Source: Gemmatales bacterium (lineage in GTDB: Bacteria > Planctomycetota > Planctomycetia > Gemmatales > HRBIN36). Taken from it: 64,000 nt of DNA. Shown one piece after another: positions 35,387 through 52,510 of the stretch. The notes beneath the pieces were generated by a model. It was not told where the DNA came from and did no database searches. It saw nothing but the letters and a program-made list of their open reading frames with translations. Location: the NCBI GenBank assembly GCA_041640595.1, contig JBEPZY010000002.1, positions 564,651 through 628,650 on the forward strand, written 5' to 3'. Both the position numbers and the translations under genes were made by a program. The first letter of the stretch is position 1. Each line of letters opens with the position of its first letter.

Positions 35387-35640
35387 GATGACCCCTCCGG
35401 TTCGCAGCACCAAGGAAATGACCTGGCCTCCCGCCCCGCCGTTCATCCTGAAAATGCCCCTCCGTTACAGGATAACGGCCCACCCTACCAGCCGTACAAG
35501 GGGAATCCGAAAGCAGAATACAAAAAAATCGGCTCCTCGGCCGCTTTTGCCTGCATTTCGGGCAGTCTTTGCCCAGACGGCGAGATCGCATGGAGTTTGT
35601 TTGCTCCGCGGTCAGGTTAGGGAGGCAGTCTGGAAAAAGG

Positions 35641-36118
35641 GGGGAGTTGGCCTGTAAGCCGGGTTCTGTACCCCGCACCATTCCGGTCCGGCTTGGCGAG
35701 AATCCAAACCAGGCCGGAATGGTGCGAGGCGATGGTCATTCCTCTAGGCCGACGGTTACCCGTCGGCTCAAGCGGCCTACCCAGGAGTAACGCAGGCCTG
35801 CAGCGAGCCTGCCGGGGCCGGACCAGCCCTCCTCCTTTATTTGGCCTTGCTCCCGGTGGGGTTTGCCGAGCCAGTCGGTCGCCCGACTGCTGGTGCGCTC
35901 TTACCGCACCTTTTCACCCTTACCTGATCCCGGTAATTTACCGGGCCATCGGCGGTATGCTTTCTGTTGCACTTTCCCTGGCCTCGCGGCCGGTGGGCGT
36001 TACCCACCACCGTGTCCTGTGGAGCCCGGACTTTCCTCTCCCCGTTCGGTTTGCGGCTGGCGTCCCCTGGCAGCGTTGCCACCAGGCCGAACGGAGAGCG
36101 ACCATCCGGCCAACTCCC
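35641..36118 (-). ncRNA. rnpB: RNase P RNA (type A)
   Basis: Minus strand GAGGAAAGTCCGGGC, GGAAAGTGCAACAGA, GGGTGAAAAGGTGCGGTAAGAGCGCAC, GGAGCAAGGCCAA and ACAGAACCCGGCTTA; P1 GGAGTTGGCC/GGCCAACTCC. Confidence 0.97.
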
Positions 36119-45142: not shown

Positions 45143-46816
45143 TCACGTGAGATTAGGTGCAGAAGGTTCGCCGCGGGCGAGTCTCTGGATTTGCTCGTCG
45201 CTGAGGCGGGTGAAAAACTGTTGCAGCGTCTCGCCGTTTTGCCGTTGCACCAGCCAGGCCCGCACCAGGCGTTCGAGGGTGAATTTCAGTTCGGTGCCGG
45301 GAACGCGGCGGAGCACGGCTTTGCCGATCGCTGCCGACTGCCCCAGTCCGCCACGAAGCAGTACATCATACGCCTCGACTTTGCCCTGGGACGTGGTCAG
45401 CGTGGTGCCCTGAATGCCGATGTCCCCGACCCAGTGCTGGCCGCAGGCGTGCGGGCAACCGTCCAAGTAAATCCGCAGGTCAGCGATGGCCGGGCCAAAC
45501 TGCTGTTCCAGATGCTCGACAATTTCGACCAGTTTTGTCTTGGTTTCGCCGACGGAAAAATTGCAATGCGGTTCGCCGGTGCAGCCGATACTGTGGCCGC
45601 GAATCGGATTGACCGCCAGCGACAGACCTGCTTGCTGCTGCAACCGAGCCAGCGTTTCGTCGGTGCGCTTTTCCGGCACGTGCACCAGGATCAGGTTCTG
45701 TTCGCGGGTAAGGCGGATTTCCGCCCCGATTTCCTCCGCAATGTCCGCTATCGCCAGCATCTGCTCAGCTCGCAAAATGCCGGGAAACACGGGCACGCCG
45801 ATATAAACCTTGCCCGGCTGTTTCTGCGGATGGACGCCGAGATGGTCGGTGCGGCCTTTGGGTTGTGGATTGACCTTCAGGTCGGTGAGTTTGCGGCCGA
45901 GATGGTTTTCGATCATCTCGCGGAGCTTTTCCGGCCCGTAGTCATCCACCATGAATTTGAAGCGGGCCTTGGCGCGGGACATGCGATATTTCAGATCGTT
46001 GCTCCAGATTTCCAGAACTGCTCGCGGTACCTCCAGCGCTTCGTCGAGCGTAACGAACACGCCGAGCGGTTTGGCAATCCGCGGCACCGTGGAAAGTCCG
46101 CCGCCGACCCAGACGGCAAATCCCGGCACGCCATCCTGAATCGTTCCCACCAGAGCCACGTCGTGAATTTCCGGGGCGTTGCAATGGTATGGGCAAGCGG
46201 AAATCGTCCACTTGTGTTTGCGGGGCAGGTTGCCGTATTGCGGATTGCCGCTGAACCGGCGGTGCGCTTCCAGCACGACCGGCGTGGCGTCGAAGAGTTC
46301 CTCGGCATCAATGCCCGCTACCGGGCAGCCGGTGATATTCCGCAGCACATCGCCGCAGCCGCCTTTGGTCGTCAGGCCAGCCGCCTCCAGACGAGGAAAA
46401 ATCTGCGGCAAGTCGGCGATGCGAATCCAGTGTAGCTGAATGTCCTGCCGCGTGGTAATTTCGCCGTAACTGCGACCGAAGTCCCGCGACAGTTCGCCGA
46501 TGGCTCGTAATTTCTGCGGCGTGAGCAACCCGTTGGGCAACTTGATCCGCATCATCATGAAACCGACTTTCGGCTTGTCGTGGTAAAGCCCCCACCACTG
46601 GAAGCGCAGCATGTCCTCTTCGGGGATTTCCTCATAGGGGGTAGCGGCGAGACGGTCGAACTCGGCGGCCAGGTCATAAGGAAACTTCTCGTGCTTGATG
46701 CGTTCGACGTAATTGCGTTTGCGCACTTCTTCCCAGGTGAGCGGACGTTCTGGTCGGGAAGTTCGTGCGGGTGTCGCACCGCCAGTCACTGGGGGAACGG
46801 CAGGTGTTTCGGACAC
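45143..46816 (-). CDS. Ferredoxin-type siroheme sulfite (or nitrite) reductase
   Basis: ITTRQDIQLH, RNITGCP, LPRKHK, CTGEPHC and GCPHACG motifs; likely GTG start at 46816 after GGAG; stop could lie slightly upstream of cysH. Confidence 0.93.
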   Translation of the reverse strand: MSETPAVPPVTGGATPARTSRPERPLTWEEVRKRNYVERIKHEKFPYDLAAEFDRLAATPYEEIPEEDMLRFQWWGLYHDKPKVGFMMMRIKLPNGLLTPQKLRAIGELSRDFGRSYGEITTRQDIQLHWIRIADLPQIFPRLEAAGLTTKGGCGDVLRNITGCPVAGIDAEELFDATPVVLEAHRRFSGNPQYGNLPRKHKWTISACPYHCNAPEIHDVALVGTIQDGVPGFAVWVGGGLSTVPRIAKPLGVFVTLDEALEVPRAVLEIWSNDLKYRMSRAKARFKFMVDDYGPEKLREMIENHLGRKLTDLKVNPQPKGRTDHLGVHPQKQPGKVYIGVPVFPGILRAEQMLAIADIAEEIGAEIRLTREQNLILVHVPEKRTDETLARLQQQAGLSLAVNPIRGHSIGCTGEPHCNFSVGETKTKLVEIVEHLEQQFGPAIADLRIYLDGCPHACGQHWVGDIGIQGTTLTTSQGKVEAYDVLLRGGLGQSAAIGKAVLRRVPGTELKFTLERLVRAWLVQRQNGETLQQFFTRLSDEQIQRLARGEPSAPNLT

Positions 46817-46921
46817 AGCGATTCTCCGTTCAGAGTCGCCGCCAATTGCCGATTGGCCAGCCACACAAGGCATTATCGTCCCGAAAACCGAAACGGCCAC
46901 AGGCGAATTTCAATCCCACGT

Positions 46922-46950
46922 ATTTTAGGTAACATAGTCGTATTGGTCAA
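46922..46950 (-). promoter_or_regulatory. Sigma70-like promoter for the sulfite reductase-cysH operon
   Basis: Minus strand TTGACC, 17 bp spacer, TAAAAT. Confidence 0.65.
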
Positions 46951-47056
46951 CAATTCCCTGTCAGCGACTGGTTCATTGCTGGCGTTAGACGGGGATTTCA
47001 TCGCTCGGGCCTGCGATCTCGCGTGTACGGGCCTTTAATTCGCGGCAAAACGGTCT

Positions 47057-47458
47057 TTATGAGCCGGACTGGCCAGACGTGGTTTCGCCGGAACCCCGAT
47101 GCAACTTCAGCCAGCGTTGCACTGCCTTCTTACTCAACTGCCGCAGCGATTCTTGCAGTTGCTGAAGGGTCAGGCCGGCAATTTTGCGGGGAAGTAAAAC
47201 GTAGTCATAACCAGTCGGAATCTCCGGCTTGCACAAACGGAAGGCTTCCCGCAGTAACCTGCGAACCCGGTTGCGAACGTGTGCTTTGCCCCATCGTCGG
47301 GCTACGGACAAACCCACGCGTGCCCAGGGTAACTGGTTCGGGGCCACCAGCACCACCAGCCATTCGTCCGCTGCTGAACAACGATTCTGAAAAATTCGAT
47401 CGAAGTCGGCATCGGACCGGAGACGTTCCCGTCGGGACAGACCGTAACGCTTGGCCAT
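47057..47458 (-). CDS. rnpA: Ribonuclease P protein component
   Basis: ERLRSDADF, RVGLSV and KAHVRNRVRRLLREAFR (RNR motif). Confidence 0.95.
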   Translation of the reverse strand: MAKRYGLSRRERLRSDADFDRIFQNRCSAADEWLVVLVAPNQLPWARVGLSVARRWGKAHVRNRVRRLLREAFRLCKPEIPTGYDYVLLPRKIAGLTLQQLQESLRQLSKKAVQRWLKLHRGSGETTSGQSGS

Positions 47459-47652
47459 GGGAGAATTCGGTTGTGGCGCGGTAATTCCAGCTGGCCCACG
47501 GTCAGGCGTGTCCGCGCTTCTGGCGATAATGGCAGGCGACGTTTAGTGGTTACGGCAGGCGAAGGTTTAGCAGGTTCGCGGTTCGGTGTGCGGCAGGGCA
47601 CTGCTTTTGGCGTGATACGCAACGCTGGAAGCCGGGCTTGCCTTCCGACGCA

Positions 47653-48576
47653 CTACAGACGCATCTCCGACCGCGGATTATAGGGGTTGCGTCGGGCAAA
47701 TTCCTCGAGCAATCGTCGGCTTTCCGGGTCGAGGTGTTTCGGCAGGACAATGCGCAGTTCGACATACAGATCGCCGCGTTGACTGCTGCCAGGAATCGGA
47801 AACCCATGCCCGCGAATGCGCAGTCGCTGCCCGGACGATACTCCAGGGGGCACGGTTACCGACAGGGTCTCATCCAGTCCAGGCACATCAATTTTGCCGC
47901 CGAAGACTGCTTCCTGCAGCGAAATCGGCACCTGCACGACCAGATCGTTGCCTTCCCGGCGGAAATACGGATGCGGACGCACGCGGATTTTCAAATACAA
48001 ATCGCCGCCTTCGATACCCTGGCCCCGTAACCGCAGCGTTTGTCCGTCGGTGGTGCCCGGTGGGATATTGACGCGAAGCACAGTCGGTCCGGTGTCGGGC
48101 CGATGAACCGACAATTCGATGGGGCCGCCGCGGGCCGCCGTCACAAAATCCACCTCGATTTCCTGATGGGTATCCTGACCGGTGGGCCAGACAGTACGCC
48201 GCCGCTGACGCCGCTGGCCAGGCATGGACCCGAAGATCATTTCGAACAGGTCCGCGGCATCCACACCCTCGCCGAAAAAGGTGGTGCCTCCCGGTCCCCA
48301 GCGAAACTCGAATCCGCCAAACGGACCGGTCTGGGCCCCCGCCTGGGCGCCGGCATGTTCAAAGACCCGACCGTAACGGTCATACTGGGCGCGTTTTTTC
48401 TCGTCGCTGAGGACCTCATAGGCCTCCTGCACCTCGCGGAATTTGGCTTCCGCTTCTTTGTCGCCGGGATTACGGTCGGGGTGATACTTCATCGCCAGCT
48501 TGCGGTAGGCGCTTTTGATTTCCTCCAGCGTGGCGTTGCGGGGCACCCCGAGAATTTCGTAATAATCGCGTGGCAT
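47653..48576 (-). CDS. DnaJ-class (CbpA-like, no Zn finger) co-chaperone
   Basis: J domain with HPD, G/F region and DnaJ C-terminal domains. Confidence 0.93.
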
Positions 48577-48907
48577 GGCTCAATGAATGCCGTACAGACA
48601 CCGAAATTGGGCGAAATTGCCGTGCAGGAATTGGCCAGGTAAAGCCGCCTGGTAATTGCTAAATCGGCTGCGCACCCATTACGGCGTTACCCCGGCCGGA
48701 CCCGCACCTTCACTCGACCCGCCTGGGTTAGCCCTGCCGGTGGCGTCAATGCAACCCTGCTCGGTAGCGTAGCCGGCACAGTGTCAGCAACTGGCCGTAG
48801 GGATTTTAGCCGTCGGGCTAGAGCTAGGACAAGTAGCACGCCGTCAGATTTCGCCTGGTCTGCCACGCACACCGACCAGTGTTTGTGCCGAAAAGTGGCC
48901 GACCTGC

Positions 48908-48936
48908 TTGCAAACTCCTGCTTTGTTGTTTAGACT
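48908..48936 (+). promoter_or_regulatory. Sigma70-like promoter of putative ncRNA-1
   Basis: TTGCAA (48908-13), 17 bp spacer, TAGACT (48931-36). Confidence 0.65.
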
Positions 48937-48941
48937 GCAAT

Positions 48942-49363
48942 GGGCAGGATGACCCCGGCCTGGAATCGAAATTATCCGTGCACTGCCTCCTGGTGTGCGC
49001 GGCGCTCTTTGCGACCGGCACCGCAAATAACGGATCGCGACCCAGCAAAGTTCCGAACATCCTTGGAAACTCACGCGGCCCATCTGGAAAAACCTGCCGG
49101 GCCAGCGGTACCGGTGAGCGAAACAGCCGAGGTACCACTGAGCGAACCAGCCAACCCAGGCGTCTATCTAGCCGGTGCGAATAAAATAACGCTGCCGGCA
49201 CAGCCTGATCCGCGAAAGGCGAATCTACTCCTTCGGACATAGATCCGCCGACATACACCGTGCCGGTAAATTCTGATCGCAATCCACACGGGGTGGTGAC
49301 TGGGTCGCCCTCACGGGGAGGGTGGACCCTGCGCTGGGAGTCATCACCCCGCTTTTTCTTTTT
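48942..49363 (+). ncRNA. Putative large structured ncRNA-1 (unassigned family)
   Basis: Lies between a promoter and a terminator; 5'/3' long-range helices and many internal hairpins; no credible ORF. Confidence 0.55.
49289..49363 (+). terminator. Intrinsic terminator-like hairpin plus U tract
   Basis: CGGGGTGGTGACT (49289-301) / AGTCATCACCCCG (49339-51), inner stem, then CTTTTTCTTTTT. Confidence 0.7.
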
Positions 49364-49382
49364 GTTGCGTTACAATGGGTGC

Positions 49383-49808
49383 GGGTGCGCGAGGTCTTGA
49401 TCGAAGCCGAAACGGGCTCACCGAGATGAGCTACCCTAGTTGTAGCGGTTAGCAAGCCTCGCAAGGGTGGCACCTGTCGAACTGTTTGAAAGCGGGCCAG
49501 CCTGGTAAGTGACTGGACCGCAGCAGACTTGCGGCTCGCGTGTCACGTCGTGCTGGGGAAATTCCTCCGCCATCTCCGCTCATTGGCCTCTGCGGCGTGG
49601 GATGACAACCCACTGACAGTGGTGCATGCCCCATGCCTCGGAAAGCTGGAATTGGTCGGGATGATTGCGAACGGATCGCGGCGGACGGTGTCTCTCTTGG
49701 TGGCGGGTTTCGGTGAAGATTACTTTCGCGCCGGGCCAGTTGCAAATAAAAGAGGCGGCGGATAACTGTTTCGGTTTGGCTGAAGATTGCTTTTGCTTTC
49801 TCGCCCCC
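49383..49808 (+). ncRNA. Putative large structured ncRNA-2 (unassigned family)
   Basis: TACAAT at 49371-76; nested long-range helices (12, 9, 6 and 9 bp) whose wobbles are all + strand G-U. Confidence 0.5.
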
Positions 49809-49817
49809 AATCGCTGT

Positions 49818-50825
49818 CTAACGGTGGCTGGCATTTGTTATGGGGATTTCTAAAACCGGCTGCTGAGGGCAATCGGTGGCCACGCGGATCACGGCATTTT
49901 TCGGCACGTCGGCCTGCGCTTGCCGGCGGACAATGAGCAGATGAATCGGCTGGGGGCGATCGCTGACAGGCTCCACTTCCGTCCCTGGCGGTTTTTCGGC
50001 TATGGCCACGATCCGGAACGGCCGCAACCCTCGCAGGATCACCCGTTGCTCGGAATCAGCTCGGCCGTTTTCCACGTACACTGCCGGTGTGGCAGACACT
50101 TCGATGACAGGGCGGATTTGCCCTTCCACCAGGATCGGAAAGACCGGCAACCCTGGGTCGTTGGTGGACAACGTCAGCACGGCCAGCCAATTACCCACCG
50201 GCGCTTGTTCGTTCAGTCGAATGGCGATCTGATAGCGAGTTTCTCCGGGTCGCCGCGAAACCAGCCGGATTTGCGTCGTCAGGAACGGGTAGGGGTTATG
50301 CCCTGCGAGTATTTGCCAGTCCAGAGAACCGGAATATTCCACTTCGACGAGGCGTTCGGCAGTTTCCCCAGCTTCCAGACCGGCAAAGCGAACCATGCCC
50401 GGACGGATGACGACATCCGGTCGGCTGACCGCCCGCACCTGCAATACCTCGTACCGTGATCCTGGCTGCAACTGTAACCGCACCGCCACCACGTTTTCAC
50501 CAGCGAACTGTCGCGTGTCCATCTCCACCTCAACGTATCCGGATGCTCCCGGTTCGAGCGTCTGCGGAAGCAGTCGCACCTGCACGCTGTTGCTGCTCGT
50601 CTGCACCTGGGTGATGGTCACGGGAGCGGAAGTGGAATTTGTCCAGCGGAAGCGTTGAACCAGCAATGTTCCCATTGGCACGGGCCCGAAATCGTGCTGC
50701 GTTTTTTCAAACAGGCGGACGCTATCGGCAACGAGCAAGCCACTTCTGGCTACCAGCAAGAGCAATGCCATTACGGTCAACCATCGTGTTCCGATCATGC
50801 GTTTGTGCTCCCGTACTTCCGGCAT
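49818..50825 (-). CDS. Exported DUF1573 (Ig-like) domain protein
   Basis: Signal peptide; HDFGPV...FRWTN...LEPGASG motif; LSTNDP. Confidence 0.82.
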   Translation of the reverse strand: MPEVREHKRMIGTRWLTVMALLLLVARSGLLVADSVRLFEKTQHDFGPVPMGTLLVQRFRWTNSTSAPVTITQVQTSSNSVQVRLLPQTLEPGASGYVEVEMDTRQFAGENVVAVRLQLQPGSRYEVLQVRAVSRPDVVIRPGMVRFAGLEAGETAERLVEVEYSGSLDWQILAGHNPYPFLTTQIRLVSRRPGETRYQIAIRLNEQAPVGNWLAVLTLSTNDPGLPVFPILVEGQIRPVIEVSATPAVYVENGRADSEQRVILRGLRPFRIVAIAEKPPGTEVEPVSDRPQPIHLLIVRRQAQADVPKNAVIRVATDCPQQPVLEIPITNASHR

Positions 50826-51007
50826 AACACGATCATCGGCAAATTGGCTCGACTTTGTGCAGTCGGCTGATAGGGGTCACGCCAGGTTTGGCGGCATTGT
50901 CCCTGGCCCGGCAAATAACTAAGCTAAGCCGACCCATGAAGCCTGCCGCAAAACCAGACCCAGCGGAAAGTGCCCTGCGCTGTCGCTGACCGTCCTGGAG
51001 ATCCTCG

Positions 51008-52510
51008 ATGAGCCAAGAACATGCCAGCGCTTCCCAACCTCCATCCTCCACCGGGGTACCGGAGCCACGTCCCTTTCGCGCTGTGGACTGGCTCATCGTC
51101 ATCATCGCCGCCATCGGGTTTGCCTTTGATATTTACGAGTTGCTGATGATGCCGCTGATCGCCCGACCGGCACTGGCGGAACTGTTGCGGGTGGATCCGT
51201 ACACGGCTAGCGGTAATGCAGAAATCCTGCGCTGGACCGGCTATATCATGTGGGGCAGCGCCATCTCCGGCGGCATTTTCGGACTTTTAGGAGGATATTT
51301 GACCGATTTGTTCGGTCGCCGGCGTGTGCTGGTCTGGAGCATTCTGCTGTATGCATTCTCGGCGTTGGCGGCGGGGTTCAGCACCAGCGCGGAAATGCTG
51401 CTGGTGTTACGCTGCACGACGTTTATCGGCGTATGTGTGGAATTCGTGGCTGCGGTGGCCTGGCTGGCGGAGCTTTTCCCCAATCCTCGCCAGCGGGAAG
51501 CAGTGCTTGGATATACGCAAGCATTTTCCTCGGTGGGCGGCTTGCTGGTCACGCTGGCTTATTACCTGTGCGTGCAACTATCGTCGTGGCTGCCGGCGAT
51601 TCATGGCGAACATGCTCCGTGGCGCTACACGCTGATTTCCGGAGTAATTCCCGCCTTGCCGCTCATTGTCGTGCGACCGTTTTTGCCGGAATCGCCGGTC
51701 TGGGAAAGCAAACGCCGACTCGGTCAACTCAAACGGCCGAGTGTGGCAGAACTTTTTTCGCCACGTTTTCGCCGCACCACTCTGGTTACGACCACGTTGT
51801 TCGCCTGCAGCTACGGGGCCGCCTTCGGCGCGATTCAATTGACCCCGCAAATCGTTCCGGGACTCGTGCCAGAATTGCCGCGGCTGGCGAAACTCCGTGC
51901 CGAACTCGATCAGGCAATCCGTCAGCAGGACAAATCCCGCGAACAGCAAATCCGTGCCCAGATGGAACCGCTTTTGCGAAAACAGGAGGAAACGGTTAGC
52001 CACGTCCAGTTCGCTCAGGAGATCGGCGGATTGTGTGGCCGATTCGCACTGGCCTGGCTGGTGGTGCGGATTGTCAGCCGGCGATTGCTCCTGCGCTTGT
52101 TCGTGATTCCAGCCCTGGTGGTCTTGCCGATGCTTTATGCCTTCCCGGCGGCGGGACGCTTACCGGCATATAACCTGGAAATGCTCACCGCTGGCATTTT
52201 CCTGGCCGGGTTTCTGGTGGTTGGACAATTCAGCTTCTGGGGCAATTATCTGCCGCGGGTTTATCCAGTGTATCTGCGGGGCACGGGAGAAAGTTTCGCG
52301 GCCAATGTAGGCGGGCGAATGATTGGAACGGCAGCCAATCCGCTCAGTGCCATCGTCTTTGCCGAACTGTGGCGAAACCTCGCCACCGGTGCCACCCCGC
52401 CGCAAATCACCGCCTTTGCTGCCGCTACCACCAGCTTTGTCGTTTTTGCTCTGGCGCTGGTGCTGACGTTTTTCCTGCCCGAACCTCAAAGCGGTGCCGC
52501 CGACGATTGA
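51008..52510 (+). CDS. MFS transporter
   Basis: GYLTDLFGRRR motif A; about 12 TMs; YPVYLRGTG. Confidence 0.93.
   Translation: MSQEHASASQPPSSTGVPEPRPFRAVDWLIVIIAAIGFAFDIYELLMMPLIARPALAELLRVDPYTASGNAEILRWTGYIMWGSAISGGIFGLLGGYLTDLFGRRRVLVWSILLYAFSALAAGFSTSAEMLLVLRCTTFIGVCVEFVAAVAWLAELFPNPRQREAVLGYTQAFSSVGGLLVTLAYYLCVQLSSWLPAIHGEHAPWRYTLISGVIPALPLIVVRPFLPESPVWESKRRLGQLKRPSVAELFSPRFRRTTLVTTTLFACSYGAAFGAIQLTPQIVPGLVPELPRLAKLRAELDQAIRQQDKSREQQIRAQMEPLLRKQEETVSHVQFAQEIGGLCGRFALAWLVVRIVSRRLLLRLFVIPALVVLPMLYAFPAAGRLPAYNLEMLTAGIFLAGFLVVGQFSFWGNYLPRVYPVYLRGTGESFAANVGGRMIGTAANPLSAIVFAELWRNLATGATPPQITAFAAATTSFVVFALALVLTFFLPEPQSGAADD

What the first reader, a model, noticed from the sequence alone, without database searches (positions are those of the whole stretch)
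48908..49363. Self-contained ~420-nt structured RNA gene of no recognisable family (ncRNA-1)
Seen: a canonical promoter (TTGCAA-17-TAGACT) and a 13-bp terminator hairpin plus U tract bracket a stretch with no credible ORF. The 5' and 3' parts form one long interrupted helix: TGGA 48961-64/TCCA 49283-86, CCG/CGG, GCAC 48980-83/GTGC 49260-63, GGTGTG 48992-97/TACACC 49254-59 and CGGCG 49000-04/CGCCG 49246-50. That helix encloses TTTGCG/CGCAAA, CGGATC 49031-36/GATCCG 49207-12, GGCCC/GGGCC, CAGCGGTACC/GGTACCACTG, CAGGC..GCCGG/CCGGC..GCCTG and ATCTA/TAGAT capped by a C-UUCG-G motif. ACCCCG (48952-57) can compete for the terminator's 5' arm, which could allow read-through into ncRNA-2. Established: it lacks tmRNA tRNA-like ends, the SRP helix-8 motif and RNase P motifs (rnpB is elsewhere in the window). 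Inference: a possibly undescribed large planctomycete ncRNA.
Basis: partly seen in the sequence, partly recalled or inferred. Interest (0 to 1): 0.8.

Follow-up and report, generated by a model that had tools for sequence, protein, structure and literature searches.

The report
Conserved hairpin sRNA with long leader
This is a real non-coding RNA gene, but the conserved, probably functional part is the 65-base hairpin first read as a mere terminator, a small RNA shared by many related planctomycetes, while the long upstream "body" is a fast-evolving add-on found only in this lineage.

Summary
Their weighting should be reversed.

**Conserved part.** Only 49289-49364, the "terminator", is conserved. 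It is 92-93% identical in three congeners whose flanking dnaJ is 72-75% identical. A covariance model finds it once in the window's genome. It also finds it in 49 of 151 Gemmatales genomes and in a second family of the class. Covariation supports a 25-bp hairpin with an invariant 3' bulge, GCGCUGGG. There is no Rfam match.

**Gene layout.** In congeners a conserved CTTGCA-17-TAnAnT promoter lies about 40 nt upstream of the hairpin. In the window the same promoter lies 353 nt upstream.

**The 347-nt body.**
- It is unique in the genome.
- It looks non-coding.
- It is present in contigs of RNA libraries.
- It is 81% identical in one metagenomic relative and unalignable in another.
- Its predicted fold is kept no better than chance, except hairpin 48976-49002.

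**Verdict.** This is a new small-RNA family of unknown function, here carrying a lineage-specific 5' extension.

The parts
48908..48913 (+). -35 element TTGCAA of the sRNA promoter
   Evidence: Read. CTTGCA is invariant in the window and three congeners (alignment A3).
48931..48936 (+). -10 element TAGACT, 17 nt after the -35. The transcription start inferred from it is about 48942-48944.
   Evidence: Read. TAnAnT is invariant at the same spacing in four genomes. The earliest contig starts in three RNA libraries are 48954, 48967 and 48985. That is only a weak hint.
48942..49288 (+).
   Evidence: Absent from the congeners. Unique in the window's genome. 80.9% identical in metagenome locus L118 and unalignable in L116/L117. 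Codon log-odds and dN/dS look non-coding. Fold z = -2.44, but the fold is not kept above chance. Covered by contigs of four RNA libraries.
48976..49002 (+). Local hairpin in the leader: 8 bp plus 3 bp, with a UCCU loop. It is the only part of the body with compensatory changes.
   Evidence: Pair probability 0.97-0.99. Pairs 48977/49001 and 48981/48997 both change from C-G to G-C in L118. A strain variant 48999 G>A turns a U-G pair into U-A.
49107..49152 (+). Tandem duplication of a 22-24-nt unit.
   Evidence: the repeat finder family D1, 86% identity. L118 has only one copy, shown as a 24-nt gap in A5.
49289..49351 (+). Conserved sRNA hairpin. P1 pairs 49289-49301 with 49339-49351. The inner stem pairs 49302-49312 with 49318-49329. 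The apical loop is 49313-49317.
   Evidence: 92-93% identical in congeners and 76% in another family. Model R1 scores it 83.5 bits, single copy. 97.3-97.5% of cells are paired, and 8 of 25 and then 11 of 25 pairs change on both sides. 97 of 775 pair cells are G-U, which fits only the + strand.
49330..49338 (+). 9-nt 3' bulge UGCGCUGGG. The GCGCUGGG part plus the following AG is invariant across the family.
   Evidence: Invariant columns in 31 distinct sequences. Also kept in the members from outside the order.
49353..49363 (+). U tract TTTTTCTTTTT, the probable 3' end.
   Evidence: Read. 23 of 31 family members have at least 5 U in the 8 nt after P1, and 8 of 31 have 4 or fewer.

Best explanation
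**Anatomy.** The locus is one + strand non-coding RNA gene. A sigma-70-type promoter (48908-48936) starts transcription near 48942. The RNA ends at the hairpin plus U tract (49289-49363).

**The conserved module.** The functional part is the 3' hairpin. It has a 13-14-bp lower stem of nearly fixed sequence, an invariant single-stranded 3' bulge GCGCUGGG, and a variable, covarying upper stem. This hairpin defines a single-copy small RNA. In other genera it is about 105 nt long (my estimate from the sequences): promoter, a short variable 5' stem-loop, a short linker, the hairpin and U's.

**What differs here.** In the window's lineage, about 300-350 nt of unrelated, fast-evolving, non-coding sequence lies between the conserved promoter and the hairpin. 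This gives a ~420-nt primary transcript. I infer that this leader is a tolerated or accessory 5' extension, not the working part. A shorter hairpin RNA may be released from it by processing.

**How the hairpin acts (inference, about 35-40%).** It is a specific binding site for a protein, acting as an RNP scaffold or a decoy. The reasons are below.
- Conservation covers both strands of the lower stem plus the bulge.
- The part that varies is the apical stem-loop, not the stem base.
- The hairpin stays conserved in members whose U tract is poor.

The main alternative is a base-pairing regulator that uses the bulge and 3' strand as its seed (about 30%).
For: **Conservation is confined to 49289-49364.**
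- It is 92-93% identical in 3 congeners and 76% in a genome of another family. Nothing else in the 1,241-nt spacer matches in the 60 relatives searched.
- The flanking dnaJ is 72-75% identical at the DNA level.

**The structure is supported.**
- 15 sequences: 97.3% of cells paired, 8 of 25 pairs changed on both sides, and 0 of 500 shuffles reach the covariation score. The slid controls pair in 35-61% of cells.
- 31 distinct sequences: 97.5% paired and 11 of 25 pairs changed on both sides. This alignment was fitted to the model, so it leans towards the structure.

**Strand.** 97 of 775 pair cells are G-U. The reverse strand scores 20.9 bits against 83.5.

**Distribution.**
- Single copy in the window's genome.
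- 49 of 151 genomes of the order, in 27 of 61 genera.
- In the class sample, 15 of 151, including 4 of 5 genomes of family f84 and 1 of 3 of f92, both outside the order.
- None of the other 150 genomes in the even phylum sample.

**An independent gene.**
- Neighbours differ between genera. dnaJ is adjacent only in the genus.
- Promoter-like hexamers lie 30-60 nt upstream of the hairpin in the other genomes (read by eye).
- The window's promoter is orthologous to the congeners' promoter.

**The leader looks non-coding.** Neither ORF has homologs in 267 genomes of the order.

**RNA-library contigs.**
- Contigs cover 48954-49310 in X18, 48967-49228 in X16 and 48985-49496 in X17.
- X17 record 7 and X3 record 20 bridge the leader-hairpin boundary with more than 31 nt on each side.

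**The hairpin evolves far more slowly than the leader.**
- Window against L118 shows 58 substitutions in 320 aligned leader positions.
- The hairpin has 4 differences. By the pairs, one pair of them is compensatory (49306/49325, C-G to U-A), one turns G-U into A-U, and one lies in a bulge.

**Apical part.** It varies freely in the members outside the order, while the stem base and bulge stay fixed.
Against: - No transcript ends or strand are shown. The laid runs are contigs, and RNA libraries can contain DNA. X3 covers all 30 bins, including the spacers.
- X17 and X3 contigs run through the U tract to 49496 and 49702. Termination there is therefore not shown.
- In X16 the hairpin is not covered although the leader is.
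- The leader may not be inert. Its length class (about 347, 321 and 295 nt, the last two by my own counts) recurs in three lineages. It folds better than shuffles in the window (z -2.44) and in L118 (z -3.61 on +, -3.14 on -). In L117 it does not (z +0.14).
- One leader hairpin carries two compensatory changes.
- No partner protein, target or phenotype is known, so the functional part of the statement is inference only.
- The genome lacks detectable Hfq and ProQ/FinO at 95% completeness. This removes the usual sRNA chaperones and points to no replacement.
- The model search scored only about 29 candidates per genome under strict filters. Absences are therefore soft.
Confidence: 0.62

Rival explanations
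1. The whole ~420-nt transcript is one conserved, highly structured RNA closed by a long interrupted 5'/3' helix. The 3' hairpin is only its terminator.
For: - Body z = -2.44 on the + strand, against -0.56 to +0.94 for the flanks.
- The L118 leader has z = -3.61.
- A long leader recurs in three lineages.
- Hairpin 48976-49002 has two compensatory pairs.
Against: - Three of the five long-range segments have pair probability 0.0.
- The body is absent from the 3 congeners and 57 other relatives.
- Against L118, 18 of 87 aligned pairs are broken, and permuted substitutions break 18.1 on average. 2,856 of 5,000 permutations do as well or better.
- 3 compensatory pairs are seen where 0.99 are expected (370 of 5,000 permutations reach 3).
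- The GGTACC helix rests on a tandem duplication that L118 lacks.
- The L117 leader has z = +0.14.
- Strain variants 49207 G>A and 49209 T>C break the CGGATC/GATCCG helix without a partner change.
Confidence: 0.08
2. Two overlapping units. The conserved hairpin sRNA has its own weak internal promoter, a TAAATT box at 49267-49272. The upstream promoter makes a separate leader RNA that merely shares the terminator.
For: - CGTGCCGGTAAATT (49258-49271) is an identical block between the window and L118, inside an 81%-identical region.
- One congener's promoter also has TAAATT as a candidate -10 box.
- In X16 the leader is covered without the hairpin.
Against: - There is no acceptable -35. The hexamer 17 nt upstream is TCCGCC (my reading).
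- The promoter scan lists nothing there.
- The orthologous promoter of the congeners aligns to 48908-48936, not to 49267.
- Contigs of two RNA libraries run continuously from the leader into the hairpin.
Confidence: 0.12
3. The body encodes a small protein, and the hairpin serves as its terminator. One candidate is the + frame 48957/48978-49184, which has a hydrophobic signal-like N-terminus. The other is the - strand frame from 49282.
For: - Both frames stay open in L118, with the + frame stop at the same place.
- The two clear indels are 3 and 24 nt long, so both are in frame.
- The + frame begins with a hydrophobic stretch.
Against: - Codon log-odds are -0.17 and -0.21 for the + frame and -0.14 for the - frame. 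Both fall within the off-frame distribution (mean -0.264). Coding pieces average +0.239.
- GC by codon position is flat, unlike the genes' 0.65/0.45/0.64.
- dN/dS is 0.89 for the + frame and 0.55 for the - frame. A neighbouring - frame that contains stops scores 0.59.
- Substitutions by codon position are 13/22/23, so there is no third-position excess.
- There are no homologs in 267 genomes of the order. The best hit outside the window's genome has E = 1.3e-3 per genome and contains a stop.
- The 24-nt indel is a tandem repeat unit.
Confidence: 0.06
4. Functional rival for the hairpin. It is a trans-acting base-pairing sRNA. The invariant bulge and the 3' strand of P1 are the seed that pairs with mRNAs. 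No Hfq or ProQ is needed.
For: - It has the usual anatomy of such RNAs: its own promoter, a 5' stem-loop, a terminator hairpin and a U tail.
- It has an invariant single-stranded stretch of at least 8 nt.
Against: - Seeds normally sit in accessible 5' or linker regions, and those are the variable parts here.
- Sequence conservation of both strands of P1 is not needed for a seed.
- A crude search of the window's genome for 9-mers complementary to the bulge gave 574 hits against about 204 expected from uniform composition. No target stood out.
Confidence: 0.3
5. The hairpin is only a well-conserved intrinsic terminator or a DNA-level site, with no function as an RNA.
For: It is followed by a U tract in most members. 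In 15 of 27 other loci it sits 5-106 nt from the 3' end of a convergent gene.
Against: - There is no upstream gene on the same strand to terminate. Promoter-like boxes lie directly upstream.
- Terminators do not keep an invariant 8-nt bulge and a fixed stem sequence across 27 genera and a second order.
- 8 of 31 members have 4 or fewer U's in the 8 nt after the stem yet keep the hairpin.
- The G-U pairs fit one strand only.
Confidence: 0.04

Closest known systems
Stand-alone bacterial sRNA genes ending in an intrinsic-terminator hairpin (the general class of trans-acting regulatory sRNAs)
   Same: Own sigma-70-type promoter, a 5' stem-loop, a 3' hairpin plus U tract, and single copy. The gene lies between unrelated genes and is about 100 nt long in most carriers.
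   Different: The strongest conservation is inside the terminator-like hairpin, in the stem base and an invariant bulge, and not in a 5' seed. No Hfq or ProQ is detectable. In the window the 5' part has grown to 347 nt.
Protein-binding housekeeping hairpin RNAs: small SRP RNA (RF00169) and 6S RNA (RF00013)
   Same: Single copy, with a long hairpin whose conserved asymmetric internal loop is flanked by conserved helices. The promoter is constitutive-looking. This is what the element 'works like' under my preferred inference.
   Different: It is not a member of either family. The genome's SRP RNA is at G000:C2:143126-143222 (50.5 bits) and its 6S RNA at C4:329529-329718 (59.9 bits). The hairpin gives no Rfam match at E up to 10 apart from one noise hit. 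It is found in only about a third of the order, so it is not universal.
Y RNA with the Ro/Rsr protein
   Same: A stem with a conserved bulged helix and a 3' U tail. I considered this because of a resemblance I recalled, which no tool call supports.
   Different: No TROVE-domain (Rsr) gene was found in the window's genome, while the control genomes gave matches. There is no Rfam Y RNA match.
Large structured bacterial ncRNAs held in Rfam (OLE, GOLLD, ROOL, HEARO, raiA; names recalled)
   Same: The window's transcript is about 420 nt, non-coding, and folds somewhat better than shuffles.
   Different: No match to any of the 4,227 Rfam models. The large part is not conserved, and its fold is not kept above chance.
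CsrA-sequestering sRNAs (CsrB / RsmZ type)
   Same: The genome has two CsrA genes. The invariant bulge ends in a GGA.
   Different: There is only one invariant GGA, and it sits at a stem junction, not as several GGA motifs in loops. By my count the window's transcript has 9 GGA where about 7 are expected from composition. That count was made by hand and not scripted.

Membership tests
Any Rfam 15 family (4,227 covariance models) | Score at or above the family's gathering threshold | tested here: not met
   The whole window gives only RNase P at 35639-36117. For 48500-49900 at E up to 10 the only match is drz-agam-1, 16.1 bits against 37 needed. Family members L065 and L089 give nothing or 13-17 bits against 39-49.5 needed.
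Small SRP RNA (RF00169) | Match to the model; it is the genome's SRP RNA | tested here: not met
   The genome's SRP RNA is at G000:C2:143126-143222, 50.5 bits. The finding is not among the matches.
6S RNA (RF00013) | Match to the model | tested here: not met
   6S RNA lies at G000:C4:329529-329718, 59.9 bits, with no match at the finding.
tmRNA / tRNA-like RNAs | tRNA-like ends detectable by ARAGORN | tested here: not met
   0 genes in 46000-52000.
Y RNA | A Ro/Rsr (TROVE domain) protein encoded in the genome | tested here: not met
   PF05731 gives 0 matches in the window's genome (95% complete). The control genomes Deinococcus and Bacteroides gave matches.
5S rRNA-derived or 5S-mimicking RNA | Sequence similarity to the genome's own 5S rRNA | tested here: not met
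   Local alignment scores are 25.5 and 27.0 against a shuffled mean of 27.6. 342 of 500 shuffles score at least as high.
Stand-alone terminator-bearing sRNA gene (general class) | Own promoter, not part of a neighbouring operon | tested here: met
   The -35 and -10 boxes are invariant in four genomes of the genus. The flanking genes are on the other strand. Neighbours differ between genera.
Stand-alone terminator-bearing sRNA gene (general class) | 3' hairpin followed by a U tract | tested here: met
   The window has a 13-bp P1 followed by TTTTTCTTTTT. 23 of 31 members have at least 5 U in 8 nt, and 8 of 31 have fewer.
Stand-alone terminator-bearing sRNA gene (general class) | A discrete transcript with defined ends on the + strand | tested here: inconclusive
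   Contigs of four RNA libraries cover the leader, and two bridge into the hairpin. Contigs give no strand and no ends, and two run past the U tract.
Stand-alone terminator-bearing sRNA gene (general class) | Conserved complementarity to target mRNAs | tested here: inconclusive
   A 9-mer search of the window's genome was uninformative.
   Against L118 the 87 aligned pairs are 59 unchanged, 7 changed on one side, 3 compensatory and 18 broken. Permutations break 18.1 on average. There are no homologs in the 60 relatives searched.
Small protein gene | Codon usage like the genome's genes, purifying selection, and homologs | tested here: not met
   Codon log-odds are -0.056 to -0.21, below the coding 5th percentile of +0.037. 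dN/dS is 0.55-2.1. There are no homologs in 267 genomes.
CsrA-sponge sRNA | Several GGA motifs presented in loops | tested here: not met
   The conserved core has one invariant GGA, at the junction of the bulge and the stem. CsrA itself is present in two copies.

The most novel reading that the evidence does not exclude
The hairpin is the RNA ligand or subunit of an undescribed ribonucleoprotein. That RNP would be shared by a large part of Gemmatales and by at least one family of a neighbouring order. The fixed stem base and the GCGCUGGG bulge would form the protein-recognition site. In a hot-spring sub-clade the gene has also acquired a 300-350-nt modular 5' domain, which evolves fast but is kept in length and has begun to hold structure (hairpin 48976-49002). 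This would be an sRNA caught in the act of growing into a larger RNA.
Probability: 0.25. Interest if true: 0.65.

Novelty: new member of a known kind. Interest (0 to 1): 0.45.

Why it matters
I found no described regulatory RNA of Planctomycetes, in Rfam or in the two literature searches run here (only listings and abstract starts were seen).

This result gives a concrete, well-supported sRNA family: 25 covarying pairs, an invariant bulge, and presence in 49 of 151 genomes of the order. It comes with a covariance model (R1) that can be used for annotation.

It also gives a clear experimental handle. The hairpin can be pulled down or mutated in a cultivable carrier.

The result also shows how a reader without comparative data can invert the importance of parts. 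Here the 'terminator' is the gene's core and the elaborate fold is a lineage-specific add-on.

The leader ranges from about 30-55 nt to about 350 nt behind one orthologous promoter. That makes it a small natural experiment in how sRNA genes gain sequence.

Tried and rejected
- **Mobile element or MITE origin of the body.** No second copy exists in the genome; the best hit outside the locus itself has E = 0.11. There are no terminal inverted repeats.
- **ORF homology.** Searches with the two + strand frames over 267 genomes of the order gave only hits at E of 2.4e-4 or worse per genome, mostly with internal stops. A hit that recurs in genera g7 and g14 lies in a stretch that, by eye, looks like the antisense of a long open frame (not tested further). 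I treat it as chance.
- **Link to the convergent SAM methyltransferase.** In 15 of 27 other loci the right-hand neighbours form one homology cluster. The 3 I scanned are Methyltransf_11 proteins. However, the methyltransferase loci of five genomes, including the window's, hold no hairpin; the best match has E = 1.3. In the window's genus the neighbour is a DUF1573 gene instead. I read this as synteny, not a demonstrated link.
- **5S rRNA mimicry.** No similarity.
- **Y RNA.** No TROVE gene.
- **Target search with bulge-complementary 9-mers.** Uninformative.
- **Coverage gaps in RNA-library contigs.** Nothing covers 48608-48953 in X16, X17 and X18, and the hairpin is uncovered in X16. No DNA run was laid for comparison.
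- **Strain variants from those contigs.** By my hand classification against the structure, about as many break predicted pairs as keep them. They show no third-codon-position excess in any open frame.
- It timed out and printed nothing. It was rerun with fewer cases.
- **Earlier notes of this scan.** The look-up by sequence returned nothing.
Full report
**1. Setting.** The finding lies in a 1,241-nt spacer (48577-49817). On one side is a DnaJ-type gene (47653-48576, - strand; Pfam DnaJ plus DnaJ_C). On the other is a DUF1573 gene (49818-50825, - strand). The window is G000:C2:564651-628650, from a 4.45-Mb, 42-contig genome that is 95% complete and 57.6% G+C.

**2. Checking the observation.**
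- The promoter is TTGCAA (48908-13), 17 nt, then TAGACT (48931-36).
- A 13-bp inverted repeat pairs 49289-301 with 49339-351. It is followed by TTTTTCTTTTT.
- The listed complementary segments were re-found.
- Rfam gives nothing. At gathering thresholds the window holds only RNase P RNA at 35639-36117. At E up to 10 the spacer gives one noise hit, drz-agam-1, at 16.1 bits against 37 needed.
- ARAGORN finds no tRNA or tmRNA nearby.
- The whole 422-nt RNA folds at z = -2.42 on + and -2.41 on -.
- With the hairpin removed, the 347-nt body gives z = -2.44 on + (2 of 100 shuffles as low) and -1.47 on -. Four flanking controls of equal length give -0.56, +0.94, -0.02 and -0.20.

The body is therefore modestly more foldable than chance.
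- In the Boltzmann ensemble the long-range segments GCAC/GTGC, GGTGTG/TACACC and CGGCG/CGCCG have probability 0.0.
- That 5' sequence forms a local hairpin instead (48976-83/48995-49002, P 0.99).
- The main long-range contact is 49014-21/49260-67 (P 0.86).

**3. What is conserved.**
- A DNA search of 60 relatives with the whole spacer matched only query 713-788, which is window 49289-49364. Identity is 92-93% in the three genomes of the same genus and 76% in a genome of another family.
- The adjacent dnaJ is only 72-75% identical at the DNA level in those congeners. The 'terminator' is therefore under much stronger constraint than a chaperone gene.
- The congeners keep the dnaJ ... hairpin ... 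DUF1573 order. Their dnaJ-to-hairpin distance is about 300 nt, against 712 nt in the window.

**4. The hairpin is a family.**
- A gapped pattern from the hairpin found 46 places in the species-representative genome collection. By inspection, 14 have the complementary arms and a U tract, and all 14 are planctomycete assemblies. The other 32 have other spacings and no arms, and are chance matches.
- Fifteen non-redundant sequences align without gaps (A1).
- On the structure I wrote from them, 97.3% of cells pair. The structure has 25 pairs: a 14-bp P1 and an 11-bp inner stem with one bulged base, plus a 5-nt loop and a 9-nt 3' bulge. 8 pairs change on both sides. 0 of 500 shuffles reach the covariation score. 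Versions with the 3' partner slid by 1-3 columns pair in only 35-61% of cells.
- A covariance model (R1) finds one copy in the window's genome, at 83.5 bits. The reverse strand scores 20.9 bits.
- R1 finds the hairpin in 49 of 151 genomes of the order, in 27 of 61 genera. Some large genera have none: 0 of 21, 0 of 14, 0 of 10 and 0 of 9.
- In a class-level sample it matches in 15 of 151 genomes. These include 4 of 5 genomes of family f84 and 1 of 3 of f92, both outside the order. Three large families have none: 0 of 19, 0 of 35 and 0 of 35.
- An even phylum sample gave no match in 150 other genomes.
- These searches used strict filters and scored about 29 candidates per genome, so the absences are soft.
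- On the 32-sequence model-fitted alignment (31 distinct rows), 97.5% of cells pair and 11 of 25 pairs change on both sides. That alignment leans towards the model.
- The invariant letters across 31 sequences are CG.GG...UG.CUGG on the 5' strand, CG in the loop, and GCGCUGGGAG.C....CC.C on the 3' side.
- The members outside the order keep the stem base and bulge while the apical stem-loop differs freely.
- 97 of 775 pair cells are G-U, which only the + strand can form.
- 23 of 31 members have at least 5 U in the 8 nt after P1. 8 have fewer and still keep the hairpin, so termination alone does not explain the conservation.
- Two other members give no Rfam match either.

**5. Gene anatomy in relatives and in the window.**
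- In other genera, promoter-like boxes (cTTGC..., about 17 nt, then TAgGTT-like) lie upstream of a short 5' stem-loop. That stem-loop varies in sequence but keeps complementary arms. A 5-8-nt linker, the hairpin and U's follow, for roughly 105 nt in total (read by eye, lengths estimated).
- In the three congeners, CTTGCA-17-TAnAnT lies 36-41 nt before P1.
- The window's promoter aligns to theirs, with both boxes invariant (A3). Its -10 box, however, ends 353 nt before P1.
- The last ~16 nt of the body resemble one congener's linker (by eye). About 300-320 nt therefore appear to have been added between the start site and the linker.
- The neighbours show that the gene is independent. dnaJ is adjacent only in the genus.
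- In 15 of 27 other loci the convergent right-hand neighbours form one homology cluster. The three I scanned are Methyltransf_11 proteins.
- The methyltransferase loci of five further genomes hold no hairpin.

**6. What the 347-nt body is.** It occurs once in the genome and has no terminal inverted repeats. It does contain a tandem 22-24-nt duplication at 49107-49152.

*Coding tests.*
- Codon log-odds are -0.056 for 48940-49242 and -0.17/-0.21 for the + frame with a hydrophobic start. They are -0.14 and -0.21 for the - strand frames.
- For comparison, coding pieces score +0.239 ± 0.12 and off-frame pieces -0.264 ± 0.125. The neighbouring genes score +0.34 and +0.26.
- Neither + frame has homologs in 267 genomes of the order.

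*Homologs from metagenomes.* A metagenome pattern search returned four loci.
- L119 is identical to the window.
- L118 is 80.9% identical over 486 nt, including the promoter and body.
- L116 and L117 hold the same sequence as each other over the stretch printed. Their hairpin is 95.9% identical to the window's. A TTGCAG-17-TACACT box lies about 300 nt upstream of it, and the roughly 295 nt between them cannot be aligned to the window's body.
- A long leader is thus a trait of a sub-clade. Its sequence turns over much faster than the hairpin.

*Window against L118.*
- There are 58 substitutions in 320 aligned leader positions.
- The 101 predicted pairs within the body divide into 59 unchanged, 7 changed on one side but still paired, 3 compensatory, 18 broken and 14 with a gap.
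- Placing the same substitutions at random breaks 18.1 ± 2.7 pairs. 2,856 of 5,000 permutations do as well or better.
- Random placement gives 0.99 compensatory pairs. 370 of 5,000 permutations reach 3.
- Two of the three compensatory pairs (48977/49001 and 48981/48997, both C-G to G-C) lie in hairpin 48976-49002. Its loop region is identical in both sequences.
- dN/dS is 0.89 for the hydrophobic + frame and 0.55-2.1 across all six frames. Both indels are in frame (3 and 24 nt), which keeps frames open on both strands. That is two events, one of them a repeat unit, so it is not evidence for coding.
- The L118 leader folds at z = -3.61 on + and -3.14 on -. The L117 leader folds at +0.14 and -0.84.
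- By contrast the hairpin differs at four positions. By the pairs, 49306/49325 changes from C-G to U-A, 49307 turns a G-U into A-U, and 49324 is a bulged base.

**7. Expression.** Six RNA libraries from hot springs hold part of the locus, and four were laid.
- Contigs cover 48967-49228 (X16), 48985-49496 (X17) and 48954-49310 (X18). X3 covers everything.
- X17 record 7 (49237-49496) and X3 record 20 (49210-49702) bridge the leader-hairpin boundary. Both also run past the U tract.
- These are contigs. They give no strand, no ends and no proof of transcription, and X3 may contain DNA.
- That three libraries start within 12-43 nt after the predicted start site is only a weak hint. No DNA run was laid.
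- Many strain variants lie in the body, densest at 49152-49209. The hairpin shows one, in a bulge (49324). Another lies just after P1 (49352).

**8. Mechanism.**

*Shown:* a conserved, covarying, strand-specific, single-copy hairpin behind a conserved promoter.

*Inferred:*
- The primary transcript is about 420 nt in this lineage.
- The leader is accessory.
- The hairpin is the working part.

I favour a protein-recognition role (about 35-40%). The fixed letters lie on both strands of the stem base and in the adjoining bulge. The apical part varies freely. This resembles how SRP or 6S RNA present their binding sites. A base-pairing role with the bulge as seed is the main rival (about 30%).

The genome has no detectable Hfq or ProQ/FinO. 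It does have two CsrA genes. The conserved core, however, has only one GGA, at a stem junction, so a CsrA sponge is unlikely. The hairpin is not SRP RNA, 6S RNA, a Y RNA or a 5S mimic.

**9. Novelty.**
- No Rfam family matches.
- Earlier notes of this scan returned nothing.
- Two full-text searches listed nothing relevant among the titles and abstract starts shown. I read no paper. Nothing here shows that the RNA is absent from subscription literature.
- I file it as a new family within a known kind, stand-alone bacterial sRNAs. Its unusual features are conservation concentrated in the terminator-like hairpin and a leader that ranges from about 30 to about 350 nt behind one orthologous promoter.

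**10. Verdict.** It is a real RNA gene without a known family. The '420-nt structured RNA' is a conserved ~65-nt hairpin module with a lineage-specific, largely unconstrained 5' extension. Interest is moderate, at 0.45.

Noticed in passing
window 48790-48840 (- strand boxes at 48832-48827 and 48808-48803): This is a promoter-like site, TTGTCC-18-TAAAAT, on the - strand and pointing at dnaJ. It sits in a block conserved in a congener (78% over 51 nt) and nearly identical in L118 and L116 (by eye). It is probably the dnaJ promoter. If so, the 5' UTR would be about 220 nt long.
   Followed up: partly
The region is not conserved in congeners and is not alignable in L118, where the match ends at 49364. 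Contigs of two RNA libraries do run from the hairpin through the U tract, to 49496 and 49702.
   Followed up: partly
window 49152-49209: This is a hypervariable stretch among strains. RNA-library contigs show 11 variant sites here, in several combinations, while a 406-nt contig just upstream (48752-49157) is identical to the window.
   Followed up: no
loci L044, L064-L067, L069, L070, L073, L074, L076, L080, L084, L087, L089, L090, right of the hairpin: In 15 of 27 other loci a convergent gene of about 290-420 aa ends 5-106 nt after the sRNA. The three scanned are Methyltransf_11 proteins. The window's genome has its homolog elsewhere, at C11:13534-13959, with no hairpin beside it.
   Followed up: partly
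G000:C2 near 55009, 59267 and 59801 (outside the window): Three near-identical copies of a ~60-nt stretch turned up by accident in the 9-mer search. This is an unexamined repeat family.
   Followed up: no
the window's whole genome: No Hfq and no ProQ/FinO domain were found, but there are two CsrA genes, at C8:139159-139311 and C1:134504-134650. There are also two 5S rRNA genes that differ noticeably from each other.
   Followed up: no
window 49180-49189: An A-rich motif, AATAAAATAA, stands out in otherwise G+C-rich sequence. It recurs in recognisable form in the leaders of L118 and of the otherwise unalignable L116/L117 (by eye). On the - strand it forms part of a terminator-like site in the window. 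That stem is not kept in L118.
   Followed up: partly
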